DNA of 64,000 nucleotides from Candidatus Nomurabacteria bacterium (GCA_026395995.1 JAPLXQ010000010.1:69296-133295), one strand, 5' to 3'; shown: positions 18,869 to 24,630, counted from the stretch's first letter. Made by a program: numbers and translations. Notes: generated from the letters alone by a model not told the origin.

Positions 18869-20122
18869 ATGACAAAAATAAAAAAAGTTACGGGGAGGGA
18901 AATAATAGATTCACGGGGGAATCCGACTGTCGAAGTCGAGTGTGAACTTGAGAGTGGGGCAGTGGCTGTGGCGGGTGTGCCGTCTGGGGCGAGTACAGGA
19001 ATACATGAAGCTTTGGAATTGCGAGATGCAGATAAGGCTAGGTACAACGGCCTCGGAGTTTTGAATGCAGTAAATAATGTAAACACAATAATCAATGAAA
19101 ATATTTCTGGAAAAGAATTTGATCAGAAATCTTTAGATGAGGCATTGATAAATTTAGATGGAACAAAAAATAAATCCAAACTCGGAGCGAATGCAATACT
19201 CGGTGTGTCGCTCGCTTTTGCTCGTGCAGTCGCAAATGAAAAGAAAATAAATTTATATGAATATTTAGGGAGCTTAGTAGGGAATACAGAATATGCTTTA
19301 CCCGAGCCGATGTTTAATGTTATCAATGGTGGTAAACATGCCGACAGTGGACTCGACATTCAAGAATTTATGATTATCCCTGTCGGTATAAAAACTTTTA
19401 AAGAAAAAGTCCGTGTAGTTTCAGAAGTGATTTCAGCTTTGAAAAAAGTTTTAGTGGAAAAAGGATTTGGTGTCGGAGTAGGGGATGAAGGTGGCTTTGC
19501 ACCAAAACTCGCTTCCAATGAAGAAGCTTTTGATATTTTAATTATGGCGATACAAAATGCTGGTTATACTACAGAGCAAATAAAGATCGGTATTGATGCT
19601 GCAGCATCTAGCTTCTTCTTCGAGGGAATGTATAAATTAAAAATAGCAGGGGAGGAGAAAAGTTTTAATACCGATGAAATGATAGCTTGGTATGAAAAGC
19701 TCGTATCTACATACCCGATAATTTCTATCGAAGATGGACTCGACGAAGAAGACTGGGCGGGATTTGTATCATTAAATAAAAAACTCGGAGACAAGATAAA
19801 AATAATAGGGGATGACCTTCTTGTGACGAATATAGAAAAAATCCAAAAAGCTATTTCAGAAAATGCTGTGAATTCTGTTTTGATAAAATTGAATCAAATC
19901 GGAACTTTGTCTGAGACAATCGACGCAATACAAATGACTAAAAAACAAAATTGGAACGCTATCGTTTCGCACCGTTCAGGGGAGACAAATGATACATTTA
20001 TCGCCGACCTTGCCGTAGGACTATCATGTGGTTACATAAAATCTGGCTCACTAACCCGCGAAGAAAGAGTCTGTAAATATAATCGTTTGATGGAGATAGA
20101 AGAGAATTTACTATCTAAATAA
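18869..20122 (+). CDS. eno: enolase
   Basis: MTKIKKVTGREIIDSRGNPTVEVE N-terminus and SHRSGETNDTFIADLAVG active-site motif. Confidence 0.9.
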   Translation: MTKIKKVTGREIIDSRGNPTVEVECELESGAVAVAGVPSGASTGIHEALELRDADKARYNGLGVLNAVNNVNTIINENISGKEFDQKSLDEALINLDGTKNKSKLGANAILGVSLAFARAVANEKKINLYEYLGSLVGNTEYALPEPMFNVINGGKHADSGLDIQEFMIIPVGIKTFKEKVRVVSEVISALKKVLVEKGFGVGVGDEGGFAPKLASNEEAFDILIMAIQNAGYTTEQIKIGIDAAASSFFFEGMYKLKIAGEEKSFNTDEMIAWYEKLVSTYPIISIEDGLDEEDWAGFVSLNKKLGDKIKIIGDDLLVTNIEKIQKAISENAVNSVLIKLNQIGTLSETIDAIQMTKKQNWNAIVSHRSGETNDTFIADLAVGLSCGYIKSGSLTREERVCKYNRLMEIEENLLSK

Positions 20123-20128
20123 AAATTG

Positions 20129-20215
20129 CGGAGGATGTGAGATTCGAACTCACGGACCCTTTTACAGGTCGGCGGTTTAGTAAACCGCTAGTTTAAACCA
20201 CTCACTCAATCCTCC
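20129..20215 (-). tRNA. type II (long variable arm) Ser-like tRNA with anticodon loop UUACUAA (anticodon ACU, i.e. A34)
   Basis: Acceptor GGAGGAT/ATCCTCC, D-loop with GG, anticodon stem GCGGU/ACCGC, long variable arm, T-arm GTGAG-TTCGAAT-CTCAC, discriminator G. Same architecture as the tRNA-Ser(GCU) copies but G34 to A. Confidence 0.55.
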
Positions 20216-20265
20216 AAGATTGTATTGCTATTGTAATTTATTTTGTAATTTTATACAATAGAAGT

Positions 20266-21303
20266 ATGGTAGAGACGTTAATATTAAATAGGATAAAATT
20301 TAATAAAAAAGGAATTCAAAAAAAGCTTATTTTGCAAGCTAAAAAGTCTTTAAATTTAACATGGTCTGAATTTGCTAAAGAATTAGGTGTAAGTACTAGA
20401 ACACTTACAAATTGGAGTTGTGAAAAGTTAAATATGTCTTTTGTCTCTGCTGAAAGAATTTCAAAATTAACAGATCTTAAAATTCCTAAAGGCTATTTAG
20501 TTATAAAATGGGATGATCATTTAAGAAAGATTAGTGCATCTGGTGGAAAGAGTAGTTTCAAAAAACATGGAAGAGTTGGTGGTGATGAAATATATAGAAA
20601 AAATAAATGGAAAGAATGGTGGACTAAAAATGGAAAGTATCAAAAAGCTCCTAGTGGTTATAATTCATTGTTAAATATAAAAAAACCAAAACATAATAAA
20701 TTGCTTGCTGAATATGTCGGTATTATGCTAGGTGATGGTGGAATAGCAAAATATTCTACGACAATTACTCTTTCAAATGAAGAAATAAATTATGTTAATT
20801 ATATATCAAGTTTGATAAATAAATTATTCGGTTTGACCCCAAAAGTTTATAAAAAGAAAAACGCTAATGCTGTCGATATAGTAGTTCAAAGAAAAGCTTT
20901 GGTAGATTTTTGCCAAAGTATTGGACTTGTTCAGGGAAATAAAGTTAAACATCAAGTAGATATTCCAAGCTGGGTCAAAGAGAATAAAAGTTTTTCGATA
21001 GAATGTGTTAGGGGATTAATAGATACTGATGGGTGCTTTTACACTAATTCGTATTATGTGAATGGTAAAAAATATTTTTATTTTAAAATTGCTTTTAAAA
21101 ACAGTTCTTTGCCGTTAATTAAATCAGTGGCAGAGATTTTAGCTAGTTTAGGAGTAAAAGTGAGAATAAGTAGAAATTTAAAAGACGTGCGAATTGAAGA
21201 AAAAGAATCAGTTTTAAAATATATAAAGGAAATAGGGACATATAATGATAAACATTTACAAAAAATAATAAAATGGAAAAATAGCAAAAATATGTTAGAG
21301 TAG
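20266..21303 (+). CDS. free-standing LAGLIDADG-family homing-endonuclease-like protein with an N-terminal HTH domain
   Basis: Two LAGLIDADG-type motifs (VGIMLGDGG and RGLIDTDGCF) and an N-terminal HTH (SEFAKELGVSTRTLTNW). Sits between two tRNA genes. Confidence 0.6.
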   Translation: MVETLILNRIKFNKKGIQKKLILQAKKSLNLTWSEFAKELGVSTRTLTNWSCEKLNMSFVSAERISKLTDLKIPKGYLVIKWDDHLRKISASGGKSSFKKHGRVGGDEIYRKNKWKEWWTKNGKYQKAPSGYNSLLNIKKPKHNKLLAEYVGIMLGDGGIAKYSTTITLSNEEINYVNYISSLINKLFGLTPKVYKKKNANAVDIVVQRKALVDFCQSIGLVQGNKVKHQVDIPSWVKENKSFSIECVRGLIDTDGCFYTNSYYVNGKKYFYFKIAFKNSSLPLIKSVAEILASLGVKVRISRNLKDVRIEEKESVLKYIKEIGTYNDKHLQKIIKWKNSKNMLE

Positions 21304-21313
21304 TTGGGTCAAA

Positions 21314-21402
21314 GGAACCGTGTCTGAGCGGTCTAAGGTACCTCTTTGCTAAAGAGGCAGGGGCTTTAAAACCCCTCGCGAGTTCGAATCTCGCCGGTTC
21401 CG
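21314..21402 (+). tRNA. tRNA-Ser(GCU), copy 1
   Basis: Acceptor GGAACCG/CGGTTCC, anticodon arm CCTCT-TTGCTAA-AGAGG, long variable arm, T-loop TTCGAAT, discriminator G. Confidence 0.75.
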
Positions 21403-21423
21403 CAACAAATCTAAACCCAAATC

Positions 21424-21447
21424 CGCGGCGACCGCGTTTTTCGCGTG
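21424..21447 (+). terminator. Rho-independent terminator after tRNA-Ser copy 1
   Basis: CGCGGcgaCCGCG followed by TTTTT. Confidence 0.45.
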
Positions 21448-21629
21448 AATTTGGATTTTTTACGGTATCTGATGGACAAAGTTCGAAATTACTTCGAGCA
21501 GAACCCCAATGATTTAAAAAGCTTTAGCTTTTTATTTTGGCGAAATTCGGGCGGGCTTCCATAAATACATACTATCATATTATTCTAAGTTTGAATATCC
21601 TTGTTGTGAATATACACTTATGATATACT

Positions 21630-21851
21630 ATGGGTAAATCAATTAGAACAAAAGAATACGGAGTATTCGTCAAAAGTCTTCGCCAAGCTCGTGAAGAAAT
21701 GGGATTAACACAGGTTGAGGTCGCAAAGAAACTTAAAAGACCACAATCGTACATTTCTAAATGTGAAGCTGGCGAACAAAGGATTGATGTGGTTGAATTA
21801 AATAAGTTTGCGAAACTTTATAAAAAAAACATTGGATACTTTATAAGTTAA
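21630..21851 (+). CDS. XRE-family HTH regulator
   Basis: LTQVEVAKKLKRPQSYISKCEAGEQRIDVVELNKFAKLY matches the Cro/C1-type HTH. Confidence 0.65.
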   Translation: MGKSIRTKEYGVFVKSLRQAREEMGLTQVEVAKKLKRPQSYISKCEAGEQRIDVVELNKFAKLYKKNIGYFIS

Positions 21852-21861
21852 TTATAAAATT

Positions 21862-22512
21862 ATGGAAAACAAAGAAAAACAAAATAATTTGCCTTGGATA
21901 ATTGTTGGTGTAGTTGTAATCGTTTTTATTATTTTTTTGGTAAGTAGTTCTAACAAAGGAAACACGAATCAATCAGGTAATTCTCCAACAAATAGTATAA
22001 CTGGATTTTTTACGCCAGAAAGTGATGCTCAAATAAAATGCAAATCAGTTACTCAAAAAGCCTTCGATAATTGGTCGGGGAAATTATCTAAGCAACTTTA
22101 CGATTCCATAATGATTGGTACCGACACAGGTCAAATAATCAATACTGGCTCAACTGTTGATTACAAATATAATTACAATACTGATGTAAATCTTTGTTTT
22201 ATGGAATATGTTTTTTCATGGAAAGTTAAAAAGGTTAGTTCGGGAAATGAAGGACAGGTTGATATAAAAGTTGTGCAAACACTCTTTTCTGATACCAACG
22301 ACCCTACAACCACAGGAAATACAGCTCTCGCAACTTTAGCTACAGGAACTGGCCCAAGTGGAAGTCAACTAGTACAACTTTGTTCTGTTATGGTGCCAGG
22401 GCATTATGACGACCCAACACAAAAACCAGTAGGCGAATTACTTGCTCCTACACAATGCAAGTCGGAATCAGAGTTTAATTCATTGGTGCTCGAAAGATTT
22501 GGCATTAAGTAG
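21862..22512 (+). CDS. membrane-anchored extracytoplasmic protein (N-terminal TM helix)
   Basis: LPWIIVGVVVIVFIIFLV signal-anchor followed by a Thr/Gly-rich region. Confidence 0.4.
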   Translation: MENKEKQNNLPWIIVGVVVIVFIIFLVSSSNKGNTNQSGNSPTNSITGFFTPESDAQIKCKSVTQKAFDNWSGKLSKQLYDSIMIGTDTGQIINTGSTVDYKYNYNTDVNLCFMEYVFSWKVKKVSSGNEGQVDIKVVQTLFSDTNDPTTTGNTALATLATGTGPSGSQLVQLCSVMVPGHYDDPTQKPVGELLAPTQCKSESEFNSLVLERFGIK

Positions 22513-22520
22513 TAAATTTT

Positions 22521-22925
22521 GTGCAAAAACTTTCAAAAAAATCCTTAATATCATTAGTAGTAATAATTCTTTTGATATTTTTGGGTTTATATTTCTCGCG
22601 AGATTCTATAACCAAACAATGGAAAGAATTTCAATTGAATAAAGAATTCGTTTGCCCAGAAAATCAAACTGCTGAACAAGCTGACGCTTATCGGTATAAG
22701 CAAACTAAATTTTACGTAGATAATTACCCCGATATAACCTTTCAGAATTTTTTAAGTAGGCGTATGCAACTTTTAGTTTCTCATAAATGTTCAGTTACTC
22801 TGCAGAATCTAGCGAATGATAATAATGGTGTATTGCCAGATCAAAATTCTGTTAATGAACTTAAAAATGCACCTTACGGACCAAACAATCTAACTCTAAA
22901 AGAAATGGCGAAAAATTTAAAATAA
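22521..22925 (+). CDS. small membrane-anchored protein
   Basis: N-terminal hydrophobic helix SLISLVVIILLIFLGLYF. Confidence 0.4.
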   Translation: MQKLSKKSLISLVVIILLIFLGLYFSRDSITKQWKEFQLNKEFVCPENQTAEQADAYRYKQTKFYVDNYPDITFQNFLSRRMQLLVSHKCSVTLQNLANDNNGVLPDQNSVNELKNAPYGPNNLTLKEMAKNLK

Positions 22926-22930
22926 TTAAG

Positions 22931-23497
22931 ATGGAAAGCGCAGAACAAGATTGTCATATGTTGGAAGAATATCTAAAGGTATTTCAAGATTTGATGTTGA
23001 CCATTTTACAGCGTCGCGCTCTTTTTAGAGCTTTTGAGGAATCCTTGATTGGTAAAAATATATCTGATGAAAATCCTTTTTTAAAATTTTATGCAGGTGA
23101 TTATAGGCGTTCTCAATTTGCTGATTTAAGAAAATTTTTTGATAATAACAAACGATACCCGACTTATAAGTTTTCTTTTATTACGGAACATTGTTCCGAT
23201 AAAACTATTCTAGATAGCCATAAAGAATTATTAAAAAGTTGGCAAGATAAATTTCAGGACATCGCAAATAAAATTGATTTTCATATTGAACAAGGGTTTG
23301 TGGCTACTCCTGTCTTCAAAAAACAATTTGATGATTTCACTGACGAAGTAAATGAATATATTGATAAGGTCATTGAGGTTTTGGTAAAGGACGGTCATAA
23401 AATAAGTTATCAAATGGGAAGAAAATCAGAATCTGATTTTCTAGTGAATTGGCAAAAAGAATATTTTGATGAGTTTAAGAAGATTGTTTGCGAATAG
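22931..23497 (+). CDS. hypothetical protein
   Basis: 188-aa ORF. No family recognised. Confidence 0.35.
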   Translation: MESAEQDCHMLEEYLKVFQDLMLTILQRRALFRAFEESLIGKNISDENPFLKFYAGDYRRSQFADLRKFFDNNKRYPTYKFSFITEHCSDKTILDSHKELLKSWQDKFQDIANKIDFHIEQGFVATPVFKKQFDDFTDEVNEYIDKVIEVLVKDGHKISYQMGRKSESDFLVNWQKEYFDEFKKIVCE

Positions 23498-23885
23498 GGA
23501 GCAATCCCCGCCGTTTTATAATGTTTCTTCAAAACGGCGTGGATTTGTGCGCGAACGGGTGGGTGGGTCAAGCACATAAAGAAATTTAGGACTCGCCATC
23601 CTTTTTTTTGTTATAATTGTATGGTGAGACATTTTTTTGAATTTATAAGCCCGCCCGAATTTCGCCAAAACAAAAAGAGGAGCAAGCGGAGGATTCCTCC
23701 CCAGACCCCTCCTCCTCCGTTTGCGACATCCGAATTCAGAAAAAAGGAATCAGCCGAAGTTTTGCGGAATCCTTTCCCCAGAAAATTGTTTCCGCAAAAC
23801 TTCGTCCGCATTGTTTCAGATTTCTTTTTCTGGATTTTCTTCGAAAAAAGTTCGAATTTTGTCCAGAATATACCGCAAATGTTTT

Positions 23886-23974
23886 TGGAACCGTGTCTGA
23901 GCGGTCTAACGTACCTCTTTGCTAAAGAGGCAGGGGCTTTAAAACCCCTCGCGAGTTCGAATCTCGCCGGTTCC
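23886..23974 (+). tRNA. tRNA-Ser(GCU), copy 2 (2 mismatches to copy 1)
   Basis: 89 nt, same cloverleaf as 21314..21402. Differs only at taaggt/taacgt in the D-region. Confidence 0.75.
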
Positions 23975-24012
23975 GCTTGTAATAATTTTATACATTTAAC
24001 GGCAATAATAAT

Positions 24013-24270
24013 ATGAACGGTACAAATTGGTCGGAAGTTTTCTTTTTTATTTCTTCAATAGGTTTTATATCTCTATGGGTTTTAACTATAGTATTTTTAT
24101 TTTACTTGATAAAAACTATGCACACTTTTTCTAGAATTATGAACAAATTAGAAAAAGATATAGAGAATATAAGTGAAGAAGCAAAAGATATGATAGACGA
24201 TGTGCGAGACAATATGATTTTCAAATTTTTATTCGGGAAAAAGAAGAAACATCACAAGGTTAAAAAATAG
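24013..24270 (+). CDS. small membrane protein
   Basis: N-terminal TM helix FFFISSIGFISLWVLTIVFLFYLI. Confidence 0.35.
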   Translation: MNGTNWSEVFFFISSIGFISLWVLTIVFLFYLIKTMHTFSRIMNKLEKDIENISEEAKDMIDDVRDNMIFKFLFGKKKKHHKVKK

Positions 24271-24288
24271 TTTTAATAATAATTAATT

Positions 24289-24630
24289 GTGCAAATCACA
24301 ATTGAAAAAAGAATGAAAAAAACAAAAGGAATGTCAGTAGGGAAGAAGGTGGCAATAGGTGCAGGAGTAGCAGCTATCGGAGCAATAGGAGCGTATGCTT
24401 TTATGGGTCCAAATGGAAAAAAGAATCAAAAGAAAGCGAAAGTTTTAGTAAATAAAATGGTTAAGACAGAAAAGAAAATCCAAAAAGATTGGAAAAATTT
24501 AAAAACAAAAGCCGGACCATCTCTAAAAGAATTCAAAGCTACCGTAAAGAAAGTAGCAGGCCAAACAAAAAAAGAAATTAAGAAAGAGGTAAAGAAAGCT
24601 AAAAAAGTAATAAAAAAGATTAGTAAGTAA
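24289..24630 (+). CDS. lysine-rich small protein with N-terminal hydrophobic segment
   Basis: VAIGAGVAAIGAIGAYAF followed by a KKxK-rich tail. Confidence 0.35.
   Translation: MQITIEKRMKKTKGMSVGKKVAIGAGVAAIGAIGAYAFMGPNGKKNQKKAKVLVNKMVKTEKKIQKDWKNLKTKAGPSLKEFKATVKKVAGQTKKEIKKEVKKAKKVIKKISK

What the first reader, a model, noticed from the sequence alone, without database searches (positions are those of the whole stretch)
21314..23974. 2.5-kb islet bounded by two near-identical tRNA-Ser(GCU) genes with 25-bp inverted repeats at its inner edges
Two 89-nt tRNA-Ser(GCU) genes (2 mismatches) lie in direct orientation 2.57 kb apart. Just inside them are GC-richer non-coding stretches that contain a perfect 25-bp inverted repeat (TTTTGGCGAAATTCGGGCGGGCTTC at 21536..21560, and its reverse complement at 23647..23671) and a shared AAAGTTCGAAAT(T) motif. 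The enclosed cargo is an XRE-family regulator and three small membrane or hypothetical proteins. There is no integrase or transposase. The arrangement suggests a tRNA-targeted integrated or remnant element, or a duplication mediated by the tRNA, carrying surface-protein cargo. The right-hand flank (23500..23885) has further internal inverted repeats (GAAGTTTTGCGGAA...TTCCGCAAAACTTC) and might encode a small RNA.
Basis: seen in the sequence. Interest (0 to 1): 0.55.

Follow-up and report, generated by a model that had tools for sequence, protein, structure and literature searches.

The report
tRNA-flanked defence-type cassette with hairpin inverted repeats
The islet is a partly decayed copy of a small cassette family that is common in the ultra-small Patescibacteria (CPR) and that I found described nowhere: a regulator gene plus freely swapped, often anti-phage, cargo genes, bracketed by two inverted copies of a highly conserved 233-bp hairpin-forming sequence and inserted next to tRNA genes.

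Summary
The two tRNA-Ser(GCU) genes are 90 nt long and differ at 1 position, not 2. The perfect inverted repeat is 24 bp, not 25.

The repeat is not a local oddity. It is the inner tip of a 233-bp unit (window 23647-23879) found at 92-98% identity in more than 140 contigs, all identifiable ones from Patescibacteria. No phage, plasmid, viral-contig or Rfam match was found.

Among those contigs, 49 complete elements share one plan. Two units point outward. A 64-86 aa XRE gene sits just inside one unit (46/49). The cargo is hypervariable and includes type II restriction-modification genes, ThsB-TIR, AAA/OLD ATPases, HNH nucleases and ABC transporters.

The XRE-side unit usually faces a tRNA 3' end (10/26) or a large serine recombinase gene (7/26). 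One relative (L021) carries an 18-bp direct repeat of the tRNA 3' end. Homologous loci (L014, L067, L141) hold different cargo between near-identical units.

The unit contains two hairpins with conserved loops and covarying stems.

In the window the left unit has lost its middle, including both hairpins, and there is no recombinase, so this copy is probably immobile.

How the elements move, and what the hairpins do, is inferred, not shown.

The parts
21314..21403 (+). tRNA-Ser(GCU) copy 1, the left direct repeat. Its 3' end faces the XRE-side unit, which is the usual junction in the family.
   Evidence: ARAGORN. Rfam 45.9 bits. It carries G21337, as does the orthologous tRNA of the relative L127. 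The LAGLIDADG gene stops 10 nt upstream.
21404..21458 (+). Trailer of tRNA copy 1, with a terminator-like GC hairpin and a T run.
   Evidence: Terminator scan: 21424-21436 and 21433-21447 followed by T runs.
21459..21503 (-). Outer remnant ('B') of the left unit, matching roughly unit positions 185-233. Contains the GTTCGAA box.
   Evidence: 34/43 identical to the reverse complement of 23837-23879; score 40 against shuffles of 16 +/- 2.4. Gapped alignment to the intact unit.
21504..21527 (-). A 24-nt filler that replaces about 150 nt of the unit, including both hairpins. This is the internal deletion of the left unit.
   Evidence: Global alignment of the left arm against the intact unit.
21528..21558 (-). 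Inner remnant ('A') of the left unit, matching about unit positions 1-31.
   Evidence: 31 nt, 97% complementary to 23647-23677. The 24-bp perfect core is unique in the window.
21559..21629 (+). Regulatory region upstream of the XRE gene, carried together with XRE in many other cassettes. It holds the best-scoring promoter-like site of the region, on the minus strand, pointing into the left unit.
   Evidence: The stretch 21559-21870 is 91-96% identical in at least 13 other cassettes. TTCACA-17-TAGAAT at 21610-21582, minus strand, 10/12.
21630..21851 (+). XRE-family HTH regulator, 73 aa, first gene of the cassette.
   Evidence: PF01381 E = 3.4e-11. PDB relatives are XRE proteins, with a weak hit to controller protein C.BclI at E = 0.006. 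An XRE gene is the first gene in 46/49 cassettes.
21862..22512 (+). Cargo protein, 216 aa, with an N-terminal membrane anchor. Function unknown.
   Evidence: ORF listing. Only sub-threshold Pfam hits, to the transmembrane segment. No PADLOC hit.
22521..22925 (+). Cargo protein, 134 aa, with an N-terminal membrane anchor. Function unknown.
   Evidence: ORF listing. The gene is 80-83% identical at the DNA level in cassettes L038, L077, L124 and L067, where it sits among different neighbours.
22931..23497 (+). Cargo protein, 188 aa, all-helical and soluble. Function unknown.
   Evidence: Only 9 homologues. One lies between an N6_N4 methyltransferase and a ResIII helicase (L145). AlphaFold model with pLDDT 78, a helical bundle with no significant PDB match.
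23498..23646 (+). Conserved non-coding module next to the XRE-distal unit. It has terminator-like hairpins, a T8 run, and an extended -10 (TGTTATAAT at 23609-23617) pointing into the unit.
   Evidence: 81-93% identical in L113, L110, L003, L066, L053, L007 and L029, which carry different cargo. Sequence read directly.
23647..23879 (+). Intact 233-bp unit, the right bracket. Hairpin P1: 23682-23693 pairs with 23713-23724; loop TTCCTCCCCAGACCCCTCC. Hairpin P2: 23755-23769 pairs with 23790-23804; loop TCCTTTCCCCAGAAAATTGT. GTTCGAA box near the outer end.
   Evidence: 92-94% identical over its full length in many CPR contigs. Covarying stems. Folding z-score -4.9 on the + strand and -4.5 on the - strand.
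23887..23976 (+). tRNA-Ser(GCU) copy 2, the right direct repeat. Its 5' end lies 7 nt from the unit (8 nt from the nhmmer hit end). C23910 is the derived state.
   Evidence: ARAGORN. Rfam 40.8 bits, with one more non-standard D-stem pair than copy 1. Comparison with the L127 tRNA.

Best explanation
The islet is an integrated, non-autonomous and partly decayed member of a large family of small chromosomal cassettes in Patescibacteria (CPR).

Shown:
- The family plan is: tRNA 3' end (or large serine recombinase plus tRNA), then an outward-facing 233-bp unit, a small XRE regulator, variable cargo, and a second outward-facing unit.
- The window's right unit is intact.
- The left unit keeps only its two tips.
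- The element sits between two direct copies of tRNA-Ser(GCU).

Inferred:
- The element entered at the tRNA gene by recombination that duplicated the tRNA. One route is a single crossover between a circular intermediate carrying a tRNA copy and the chromosomal tRNA. Another is site-specific integration by a recombinase supplied in trans. The only recombinase that recurs next to these elements is a large serine recombinase.
- The conserved units then act as portable bookends. Cargo is exchanged between genomes by recombination in or next to the units, plausibly helped by natural transformation. This would explain why the units stay about 97-100% identical over their first 180 nt, while neighbouring genes are only about 68% identical at the DNA level.
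- The inverted orientation means that recombination between the two arms would invert the cargo rather than delete it.
- The XRE protein probably acts like a restriction-modification controller protein, timing the expression of potentially toxic cargo in a new host.
- The two hairpins, with conserved C-rich loops and covarying stems, are recognised in folded single-stranded form, as RNA or as DNA, by an unidentified partner.
For: Distribution:
- The 22-mer core occurs exactly in 21 loci from species-representative genomes. 19 are named as CPR lineages: Paceibacteria, Parcubacteria, Saccharibacteria, Moranbacteria, Doudnabacteria, Vogelbacteria and Nomurabacteria.
- nhmmer finds 182 unit copies.

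Architecture:
- 49 complete pairs were found, always with the minus copy on the left and the plus copy on the right, 1.4-4.4 kb apart.
- 46/49 start with an XRE gene.
- 221 cargo ORFs fall into 139 clusters, 113 of them singletons.

Cargo content:
- Restriction enzymes of the Tsp45I, HaeIII, HinP1I, TdeIII and BsaWI types.
- D12, N6_N4 and C5 methyltransferases.
- ThsB_TIR, AAA_15/AAA_21 (AriA-like) ATPases, HNH nucleases and ABC transporters.

Cargo exchange:
- L014 and L067 have flanks 86% and 77% identical and units 96-97% identical, but unrelated interiors. L141 holds a third cargo at the same locus.
- The window's own cargo is mosaic.

Polarity:
- XRE-proximal ends face a tRNA 3' end in 10/26 cases and a large serine recombinase in 7/26.
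- XRE-distal ends have neither in 35/40 cases; 36/40 have no tRNA within 650 nt.

Integration signature:
- L021 has an 18-bp direct repeat of the tRNA-Ser(ACU) 3' end on both sides of the element.
- The window has a 90-bp direct repeat ending exactly at the tRNA ends.

Chromosomal location: neighbouring genes are housekeeping genes such as Mur ligases, topoisomerase, TsaD and IMPDH.

Hairpins:
- There are at least 5 fully paired stem variants for P1 and at least 6 for P2, around conserved loops.
- 91.4% of cells are paired, against 36-52% when the partners are slid.
- 16/27 pairs show changes on both sides.
- The covariation score is 0.303 against 0.128 in shuffles, reached by 0/500.

Unit conservation against flanks: window and L127 units are 92.7% identical overall and nearly identical over the first 180 nt, while the syntenic ComF and PilM genes are 68-69% identical at the DNA level.

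Arm identity: the two arms of one cassette are 98-100% identical in 9/13 cases, but some cassettes combine arms of different subfamilies at 58-86%.

Left-arm deletion.
Against: - No excised form, empty site or polymorphic insertion was seen for the window's islet. The one relative with shared synteny (L127/L093) is also occupied.
- No target-site duplication was found at unit ends.
- No direct repeat was found in L014, L067, L027, L068 or L144.
- The serine recombinase is adjacent in only a minority of cases and lies outside the units. No test links it to them.
- The unit's extreme conservation could reflect strong purifying selection on an RNA or another function rather than recombination.
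- Transcription of the unit is unknown, and the G-U versus A-C evidence for a strand is weak: about 6 events against 3.
- The window's cargo has no recognised defence domain.
- If the weak 27-nt tRNA remnant in L127 is real (2/1000 shuffles), the duplication is old. The near-identity of the two window copies would then need gene conversion or selection to explain it.
Confidence: 0.65

Rival explanations
1. The 233-bp units are primarily genes or cis-elements for a structured RNA. Candidates are a regulatory or antitoxin-like small RNA, or a transcriptional insulator/terminator that shields the cargo from read-through. In this view, they are inverted because each must face outward or inward, not because they are recombination sites.
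For: - Covarying stems around conserved loops are the classic signature of a folded single strand.
- Both strands fold far better than shuffles.
- In the window, a promoter-like site points into each unit: TTCACA-17-TAGAAT on the minus strand and TGTTATAAT at 23609-23617.
- Read inward, hairpin P1 is followed by UCCUCUUUUUGUUUU, which resembles a terminator.
- The distal unit often follows the last cargo gene directly.
Against: - There is no Rfam match even at E <= 10.
- No consistent promoter position appears upstream of distal units across the family, and many cargo operons have their own terminator before the unit.
- Hairpin loops of 19-20 nt are atypical for intrinsic terminators.
- 97-100% identity over 180 nt across CPR classes is more than an insulator should need.
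- This reading does not by itself explain the tRNA and recombinase polarity or the tRNA direct repeats.
- It is compatible with, rather than exclusive of, the main explanation.
Confidence: 0.3
2. The element is a classical DNA transposon, or a pair of MITE-like repeats forming a composite transposon, moved by a DDE-type transposase encoded elsewhere in the genome.
For: - It has long terminal inverted repeats, no internal recombinase, many copies across genomes, and assemblies often break at the units.
- IS110-type transposase genes lie near two units.
Against: - No target-site duplication is present.
- No cassette among the 49 was seen to carry a transposase (only the 25 most frequent Pfam families were displayed).
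- The sharpest conserved boundary is the INNER end of the unit. The outer ends differ between subfamilies and in places extend into flanking tRNA sequence.
- Insertion sites show a fixed polarity relative to tRNA 3' ends.
- Only one copy occurs in the 64-kb window.
Confidence: 0.08
3. The segment is an invertible, phase-variable cassette, flipped between the two inverted units by a serine recombinase.
For: - The repeats are inverted, and a large serine recombinase is the commonest recombinase neighbour.
- Contigs frequently end inside the units.
Against: - Orientation is strongly fixed. The XRE end faces the tRNA or recombinase side in 17/26 cases; the distal end does so in 5/40: two tRNA 5' heads, two tRNA 3' tails and one assembly artefact.
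- Inversion would change nothing obvious, because the operon carries its own promoter region.
- Most elements have no recombinase nearby.
Confidence: 0.06
4. The islet is a purely local accident: a tRNA-mediated duplication with unrelated intervening DNA, the inverted repeat being a coincidence.
For: The duplicated segment is exactly the tRNA, and the two copies are nearly identical.
Against: The inverted repeat is part of a unit found in more than 140 other contigs with the same architecture. Chance expectation in the window is 0.
Confidence: 0.02

Closest known systems
tRNA-targeting genomic islets / integrative mobilizable elements (small non-autonomous islands at tRNA 3' ends)
   Same: - It lies next to a tRNA 3' end.
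- Direct repeats of tRNA sequence bound the element: 90 nt in the window, 18 nt in L021.
- Cargo is variable and often defensive.
- Some relatives have an adjacent recombinase.
   Different: - Most members, including the window's, have no integrase inside.
- The recurring recombinase is a large serine recombinase lying outside the brackets, not a tyrosine integrase.
- The element is additionally bracketed by 233-bp inverted hairpin-bearing units, which such islands do not have.
Integron gene cassettes and attC sites
   Same: - Promoter-proximal variable cargo is swapped between conserved structured sites.
- The sites are hairpins whose structure is conserved.
   Different: - There is no IntI integrase or attI.
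- Sites are inverted pairs around one multi-gene cassette, not direct arrays of single-gene cassettes.
- The unit sequence is itself highly conserved, whereas attC sites conserve structure and not sequence.
Minimal mobile elements of Neisseria, and defence hotspots of P2/P4-like elements (from my own knowledge, not tested here)
   Same: Different gene sets occupy the same position between conserved flanks, consistent with exchange by homologous recombination. Cargo is rich in restriction-modification and other defence genes.
   Different: In those systems the conserved flanks are ordinary genes of one species or one phage family. Here the flanks are a portable non-coding unit shared across CPR classes.
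Restriction-modification operons with a controller (C) protein
   Same: A small XRE-type HTH gene comes first in the operon, ahead of potentially toxic genes. Several cassettes carry type II restriction-modification systems behind it.
   Different: - Sequence similarity to solved C proteins is weak (C.BclI E = 0.006).
- No C-box operator was examined.
- The same regulator precedes many kinds of cargo that are not restriction-modification systems.
MITEs and composite transposons
   Same: Non-coding repeats in inverted orientation bracket passenger genes, occur in many copies, and break assemblies.
   Different: There are no target-site duplications, no cognate transposase, a fixed polarity relative to tRNA genes, and covarying hairpins with conserved loops.

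Membership tests
The unit-bracketed CPR cassette family defined here | 233-bp unit with the core AAGCCCGCCCGAATTTCGCCAAAA and hairpins P1 and P2 | tested here: met
   The right unit, 23647-23879, is 92-94% identical to units in L004, L007, L008, L013, L014, L017, L021 and others.
The unit-bracketed CPR cassette family defined here | A second unit in inverted orientation, both pointing outward | tested here: met
   The left arm keeps about unit positions 1-31 and about 185-233 in inverted orientation, but has lost the middle with both hairpins.
The unit-bracketed CPR cassette family defined here | A small XRE gene as first gene just inside one unit, followed by co-oriented cargo | tested here: met
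   XRE at 21630-21851 starts 71 nt inside the left unit. The regulatory region plus XRE is 91-96% identical in at least 13 other cassettes.
tRNA-integrating genomic island / integrative element | Location at the 3' end of a tRNA gene | tested here: met
   The tRNA copy 1 3' end lies 55 nt from the outer end of the left unit (57 nt from the nominal hit end). Family-wide, 10/26 XRE-proximal ends face a tRNA 3' end.
tRNA-integrating genomic island / integrative element | Direct repeats of tRNA sequence at both ends (attL/attR) | tested here: met
   A 90-nt direct repeat with 1 mismatch. In L021, an 18-bp repeat of the tRNA 3' end. Unusually, the window's repeat is the whole tRNA.
tRNA-integrating genomic island / integrative element | An integrase encoded within the element | tested here: not met
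   None of the four window cargo proteins has a recombinase domain. A large serine recombinase is adjacent in 7/26 relatives, outside the units.
tRNA-integrating genomic island / integrative element | An empty site in a related genome, or an excised circle | tested here: inconclusive
   The only syntenic relative (L127/L093) has a unit at the same place with different contents. Exact-protein look-ups returned only short contigs of the same strain. No read data were available.
DNA transposon / MITE-bounded composite | Terminal inverted repeats | tested here: met
DNA transposon / MITE-bounded composite | Target-site duplication flanking the repeats | tested here: not met
   Sequences immediately outside the units in L014, L017, L021, L067 and the window show no short direct duplication.
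DNA transposon / MITE-bounded composite | A cognate transposase, in an autonomous copy | tested here: not met
   No transposase family appears among the 25 most frequent Pfam families shown for the 86 representative cargo proteins. Only two IS110 genes were found among neighbours.
Integron cassette system | IntI tyrosine integrase with attI, and cassettes in direct arrays separated by attC | tested here: not met
   No tyrosine integrase was found among cargo or neighbours. Units always occur as inverted pairs, and no arrays of closely spaced cassettes were seen.
Integron cassette system | Recombination sites that fold as hairpins, with structure conserved | tested here: met
   Hairpins P1 and P2 have covarying stems. 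Whether they serve as recombination sites was not tested.
Restriction-modification controller (C) protein operon | A small HTH regulator of the C-protein family, first in the operon, with a C-box operator | tested here: inconclusive
   The XRE HTH assignment is clear. Similarity to C.BclI is only E = 0.006. The operator was not analysed.
Any described RNA family (Rfam 15) | A covariance-model match at or near the gathering score | tested here: not met
   Only tRNAs pass. In 20000-24300 at E <= 10, the only other hits are spurious microRNA/snoRNA-type hairpin matches.
Invertible (phase-variable) segment | Both orientations found relative to fixed flanks | tested here: not met
   The XRE end is on the tRNA/recombinase side in 17/26 cases. 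The distal end is on that side in only 5/40, one of them an assembly artefact.

The most novel reading that the evidence does not exclude
The units are the recombination sites of a so-far unrecognised cassette-exchange system specific to Patescibacteria. In this reading, folded hairpins with conserved C-rich loops are recognised, as single-stranded DNA taken up by transformation or as RNA, by a recombinase such as the associated large serine recombinase. That recombinase would capture and swap multi-gene defence cassettes at tRNA-linked sites. The system would resemble an integron in function while sharing none of its parts.
Probability: 0.2. Interest if true: 0.9.

Novelty: new variant of a known kind. 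Interest (0 to 1): 0.72.

Why it matters
- Patescibacteria have tiny genomes, and little is known about their mobile elements or how they acquire defence genes.
- A compact bracket shared across CPR classes, holding a regulator and interchangeable cargo (restriction-modification, TIR, ATPase-nuclease genes and many unknowns), would be a major route of gene flow in this group.
- It would also be a ready-made catalogue of candidate new defence genes: 113 of 139 cargo clusters are singletons.
- The 233-bp unit offers a simple sequence tag for mining such cassettes from metagenomes.
- Its two covarying hairpins point to an unidentified protein or RNA partner.
- For genome annotation, the result explains a recurrent cause of assembly breaks in CPR bins.

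Tried and rejected
RNA family and sequence searches that found nothing:
- Rfam at gathering and at E <= 10 gave nothing but tRNAs.
- The unit has no match in phage or plasmid collections, or in IMG/VR viral contigs.
- Six literature searches, including the core sequence as a text string, found no description.

Cargo function:
- Pfam and PADLOC gave no hit for the three window cargo proteins.
- An AlphaFold model of the 188-aa protein is a helical bundle with no significant PDB match. The afdb50 library was unavailable.

Empty site and integration signatures:
- Exact-protein look-ups of flanking genes returned only short contigs of the same strain, or nothing.
- No target-site duplications were found at unit ends.
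- No att-like direct repeats were found in L014, L067, L027, L068 or L144.

Ideas considered and rejected or left open:
- A protein-coding reading of the unit (the 131-aa ORF 23621-24016 and its counterparts) is rejected. Subfamilies differ by 1-nt indels, and the stems covary.
- Promoter position upstream of the units shows no consistent pattern for distal units.
- The strand of the folded form is unresolved: about 6 G-U-type events against 3 A-C-type.
- LAGLIDADG as part of the element is not supported. The window's and L144's enzymes are not detectably related, and no other locus has one.
- The first whole-family RNAalifold runs were degraded by divergent members. Loop-anchored counting was used instead.


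Full report
CHECK OF THE OBSERVATION

The window contains two tRNA-Ser(GCU) genes on the + strand, at 21314-21403 and 23887-23976 (ARAGORN; Rfam). The direct repeat is 90 nt with a single mismatch (G21337 versus C23910), and it stops exactly at the tRNA ends. Copy 2 scores lower against the tRNA model (40.8 versus 45.9 bits), because the change adds a non-standard pair in the D-stem.

The inverted repeat is real. Its perfect core is 24 bp (21535-21558 and 23647-23670). It extends to 31 nt with one mismatch, and to about 42 nt with a 2-nt gap. No match is expected by chance.

The shared AAAGTTCGAA motif belongs to a second, outer inverted repeat: 21459-21503 versus 23837-23879, score 40 against 16 +/- 2.4 in shuffles. 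The two non-coding flanks are therefore mirror images.

The 15-bp hairpin at 23755-23769 and 23790-23804 is perfect.

The cargo is one XRE HTH protein plus proteins of 216, 134 and 188 aa with no family assignment.

The window has 33% G+C. It carries enolase, a type II tRNA with anticodon ACU, and a free-standing LAGLIDADG gene just upstream of the islet.

WHAT THE REPEAT REALLY IS

An exact search for a 22-mer of the core in one genome per species returned 21 loci. 19 are explicitly named as Patescibacteria of many classes; the other two are unnamed bins.

Alignment showed that the window's whole right flank, 23634-23883, is 92-94% identical to these loci. In several of them, two inverted copies lie 2-2.7 kb apart.

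Multiple alignment defines a 233-bp unit, window 23647-23879:
- The inner boundary is sharp: (A/T)AGCCCGCCC.
- The outer end is ...ATACCGCAA.

IMG/VR viral contigs gave nothing, and neither did phage or plasmid collections.

With nhmmer I counted 182 unit copies.

The window's left arm is a deleted unit. It keeps about positions 1-31 and about 185-233, and has lost the middle.

FAMILY ARCHITECTURE

49 complete pairs were found. In all of them the units point outward, 1.4-4.4 kb apart. In 46 of 49, a 64-86 aa XRE gene starts 70-115 nt inside one unit and is followed by co-oriented genes.

Cargo is hypervariable: 221 ORFs fall into 139 clusters, 113 of them singletons.

Pfam and PADLOC scans of 86 representatives found:
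- type II restriction enzymes (Tsp45I, HaeIII, HinP1I, TdeIII, BsaWI);
- D12, N6_N4 and C5 methyltransferases;
- ThsB-type TIR proteins;
- AAA_15/AAA_21 (AriA-like) ATPases;
- HNH nucleases, trypsin-like proteases, a DprA-like protein and ABC transporters;
- many proteins with no hit.

Neighbours outside the units are ordinary housekeeping genes, so these are chromosomal insertions.

EVIDENCE FOR EXCHANGE AND MOBILITY

- Same locus, different cargo. L014 and L067 are homologous loci. Their flanks are 86% and 77% identical and their units 96-97% identical, yet the interiors are unrelated. L141 shows a third cargo beside the same flank.
- Mosaic cargo in the window.
  - The regulatory region plus XRE recurs at 91-96% in at least 13 cassettes.
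  - The 134-aa gene recurs at 80-83% in four cassettes.
  - The 150-nt non-coding module next to the right unit recurs at 81-93% in seven, each time with different companions.
- Arm identity. The two arms of one cassette are usually 98-100% identical, but some cassettes combine arms of different subfamilies.
- Conservation beyond the flanks. A relative of the window's organism (L127/L093) shares synteny through ComF, PilM and beyond at about 68% DNA identity. It has a unit at the same place that is 92.7% identical overall, and nearly identical over the first 180 nt. Its interior is different: an APH-like kinase, an HTH_17 protein, a large serine recombinase and an OLD-family nuclease.

POLARITY AND tRNA LINKAGE

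Units were classed by whether the XRE gene lies just inside them.
- XRE-proximal ends face a tRNA 3' end within 650 nt in 10 of 26 cases. They face a large serine recombinase gene in 7 of 26. In L013, L014 and L067 a tRNA-Ser lies just beyond the recombinase.
- XRE-distal ends have no tRNA within 650 nt in 36 of 40 cases. Two (the window and L017) abut the 5' end of a tRNA in the same direction.

The window's left junction (tRNA copy 1, terminator, unit, XRE) is therefore the canonical one. Copy 2 is the unusual feature.

In L021 the homologous element, whose XRE region is 94% identical, follows tRNA-Ser(ACU). The last 18 nt of that tRNA, TCTCACCGCCTCCGCAAA, recur as a direct repeat about 145 nt beyond the distal unit. 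That is an att-like signature.

The orthologous tRNA in L127 carries G at the variable position. C23910 in copy 2 is therefore the derived state.

A 27-nt stretch resembling the tRNA anticodon arm lies beyond the L127 unit, at the position equivalent to copy 2. Only 2 of 1000 shuffles score as well, so this is weak evidence that the duplication is old.

THE HAIRPINS

Two hairpins in the unit have conserved loops and variable, compensating stems.

Hairpin P1 (loop TTCCTCCCCAGACCCCTCC) occurs with these stems, all fully or almost fully paired:
- GCAAGCGGAGGA/TCCTCCGCTTGC, 86 copies;
- GCAAATGGAAAA/TTTTCCATTTGC, 40 copies;
- GCCCGCGCGGA/TCCGCGCGGGC;
- two further variants.

Hairpin P2 (loop TCCTTTCCCCAGAAAATTGT) has at least six paired stem variants.

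On an alignment of 33 diverse units:
- 91.4% of cells pair, against 36-52% when partners are slid;
- 16 of 27 pairs show changes on both sides;
- the covariation score is 0.303, against 0.128 +/- 0.010 in shuffles (0/500 reach it).

The caveat is that much of this covariation separates a few subfamilies, so the number of independent events is small.

Both strands fold well. Single-side changes favour the inner-to-outer strand only weakly.

An ORF runs through the unit, but 1-nt indels between subfamilies exclude a protein.

HOW IT MOST LIKELY WORKS

Shown:
- The islet belongs to this family.
- It is chromosomal.
- It is bounded by a duplicated tRNA.
- One of its brackets has decayed.
- It has no recombinase.

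Inferred:
- Entry at the tRNA. A single crossover between a circle carrying a tRNA copy and the chromosomal tRNA would produce exactly a whole-tRNA duplication whose ends coincide with the ends of homology. Alternatively, a recombinase supplied in trans did it. The large serine recombinase is the only recurrent candidate.
- Role of the units. They serve as portable bookends for cargo exchange. Patescibacteria are reported to be naturally transformable (my own knowledge, not tested here). The window encodes ComF-like and PilM-like proteins, identified by reading their translations, not by a family search. Exchange could therefore proceed by homologous recombination in the units. That would also keep the units homogeneous across lineages.
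- Role of XRE. It is probably a controller-type regulator. Its similarity to C.BclI is only weak.
- Partner of the hairpin loops. Unknown.

The rivals are described in their own section: a structured RNA or insulator, a classical transposon, and an invertible segment. The RNA reading is not exclusive of the main one.

COMPARISON WITH KNOWN SYSTEMS, AND NOVELTY

The element works like a small tRNA-linked integrative islet carrying a defence hotspot. It has an integron-like separation between conserved structured sites and swapped cargo. It fails the defining tests for:
- integrons (no IntI, no attI, no arrays);
- transposons (no target-site duplication, no transposase);
- invertons (fixed orientation).

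It matches no Rfam family.

I found no description of the unit or the architecture in six literature searches. This does not cover subscription-only literature.

I rate it a new variant of a known kind: a non-autonomous integrative cassette. There is a real chance that the bracket represents a new recombination or RNA system.

VERDICT

The main result of the follow-up is that the islet is one decayed copy of a widespread, cross-class CPR cassette family with a highly conserved hairpin-bearing bracket.

Noticed in passing
window 20129-20215 (- strand); also L127 13866-13955 and L021 242-329: A type II (long variable arm) tRNA with anticodon ACU, called tRNA-Ser(ACU), lies near tRNA-Ser(GCU) in three different organisms. 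A34 outside tRNA-Arg is unusual in bacteria. The gene is conserved at about 80-85% and scores 52 bits against the tRNA model.
   Followed up: partly
window 20266-21303 (+); L144 2732-3397: A free-standing LAGLIDADG endonuclease with an N-terminal HTH ends 10 nt before tRNA-Ser(GCU) copy 1. A different LAGLIDADG-like gene ends 22 nt before tRNA-Leu(GAG) in L144, beside a unit-less remnant of a related cassette. The two proteins are not detectably related, and no other locus has one.
   Followed up: partly
L014 2138-2257 and 3671-3790; same arrangement in L067, L013, L141: The large serine recombinase gene is bracketed by a ~125-nt inverted repeat. One copy directly follows the tRNA-Ser 3' end (…CCTCCG|CAATTTTTC…). 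The other directly follows the unit's outer end (…ATACCG|CAATTTTTC…). The recombinase ORF reads through the first copy into the tRNA in antisense.
   Followed up: partly
L021 1-232 and 3120-3200: The 3' end of tRNA-Ser(GCU) (CGCCGGCTCCGCAA) is repeated about 160 nt downstream, a second att-like scar. The inverted repeat of the cassette extends 36 nt beyond both units and includes 8 nt of the tRNA-Ser(ACU) 3' end in inverted orientation, followed by an antisense T-arm fragment.
   Followed up: partly
window 23498-23646: A 150-nt non-coding module between the last cargo gene and the right unit is conserved at 81-93% in seven cassettes with different cargo. It contains terminator-like hairpins, a T8 run, and a perfect extended -10 (TGTTATAAT, 23609-23617) that would drive transcription through the unit and into tRNA copy 2.
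   Followed up: partly
unit outer ends, e.g. window 23849-23861 and 21478-21490: A GTTCGAA box (AAAAAGGTTCGAAT in the consensus) near the outer end of the type 1 and type 3 units is identical to the T-loop core of tRNA genes (window tRNA-Ser: GAGTTCGAATCT). It may reflect a tRNA-derived origin or shared att homology.
   Followed up: no
L006, L073, L081, L086, L107, L115 (unit positions 2-62 only); L144 3613-3782: Solo remnants occur in several genomes: units truncated inside hairpin P1, and a truncated XRE gene without any unit. This shows that these cassettes decay in place.
   Followed up: no
L001 (= window 21374-23525) and L143 (~ window 20074-21367), sample SRR20698644: Unitig-level assemblies of a public run contain this strain at 100% identity. 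They break at the duplicated tRNA and inside the right flank. This run is a data set for testing excision or variation.
   Followed up: no
L062 (7017 nt): The contig is a near-perfect palindrome, with the same 1936-nt recombinase-bearing flank on both sides of the cassette. This is probably an assembly artefact caused by the inverted units.
   Followed up: no
L145 3528-8117: A 42%-identical homologue of the window's 188-aa cargo protein sits between an N6_N4 DNA methyltransferase and a ResIII helicase. This hints that the uncharacterised helical protein is an accessory of restriction-like systems.
   Followed up: partly
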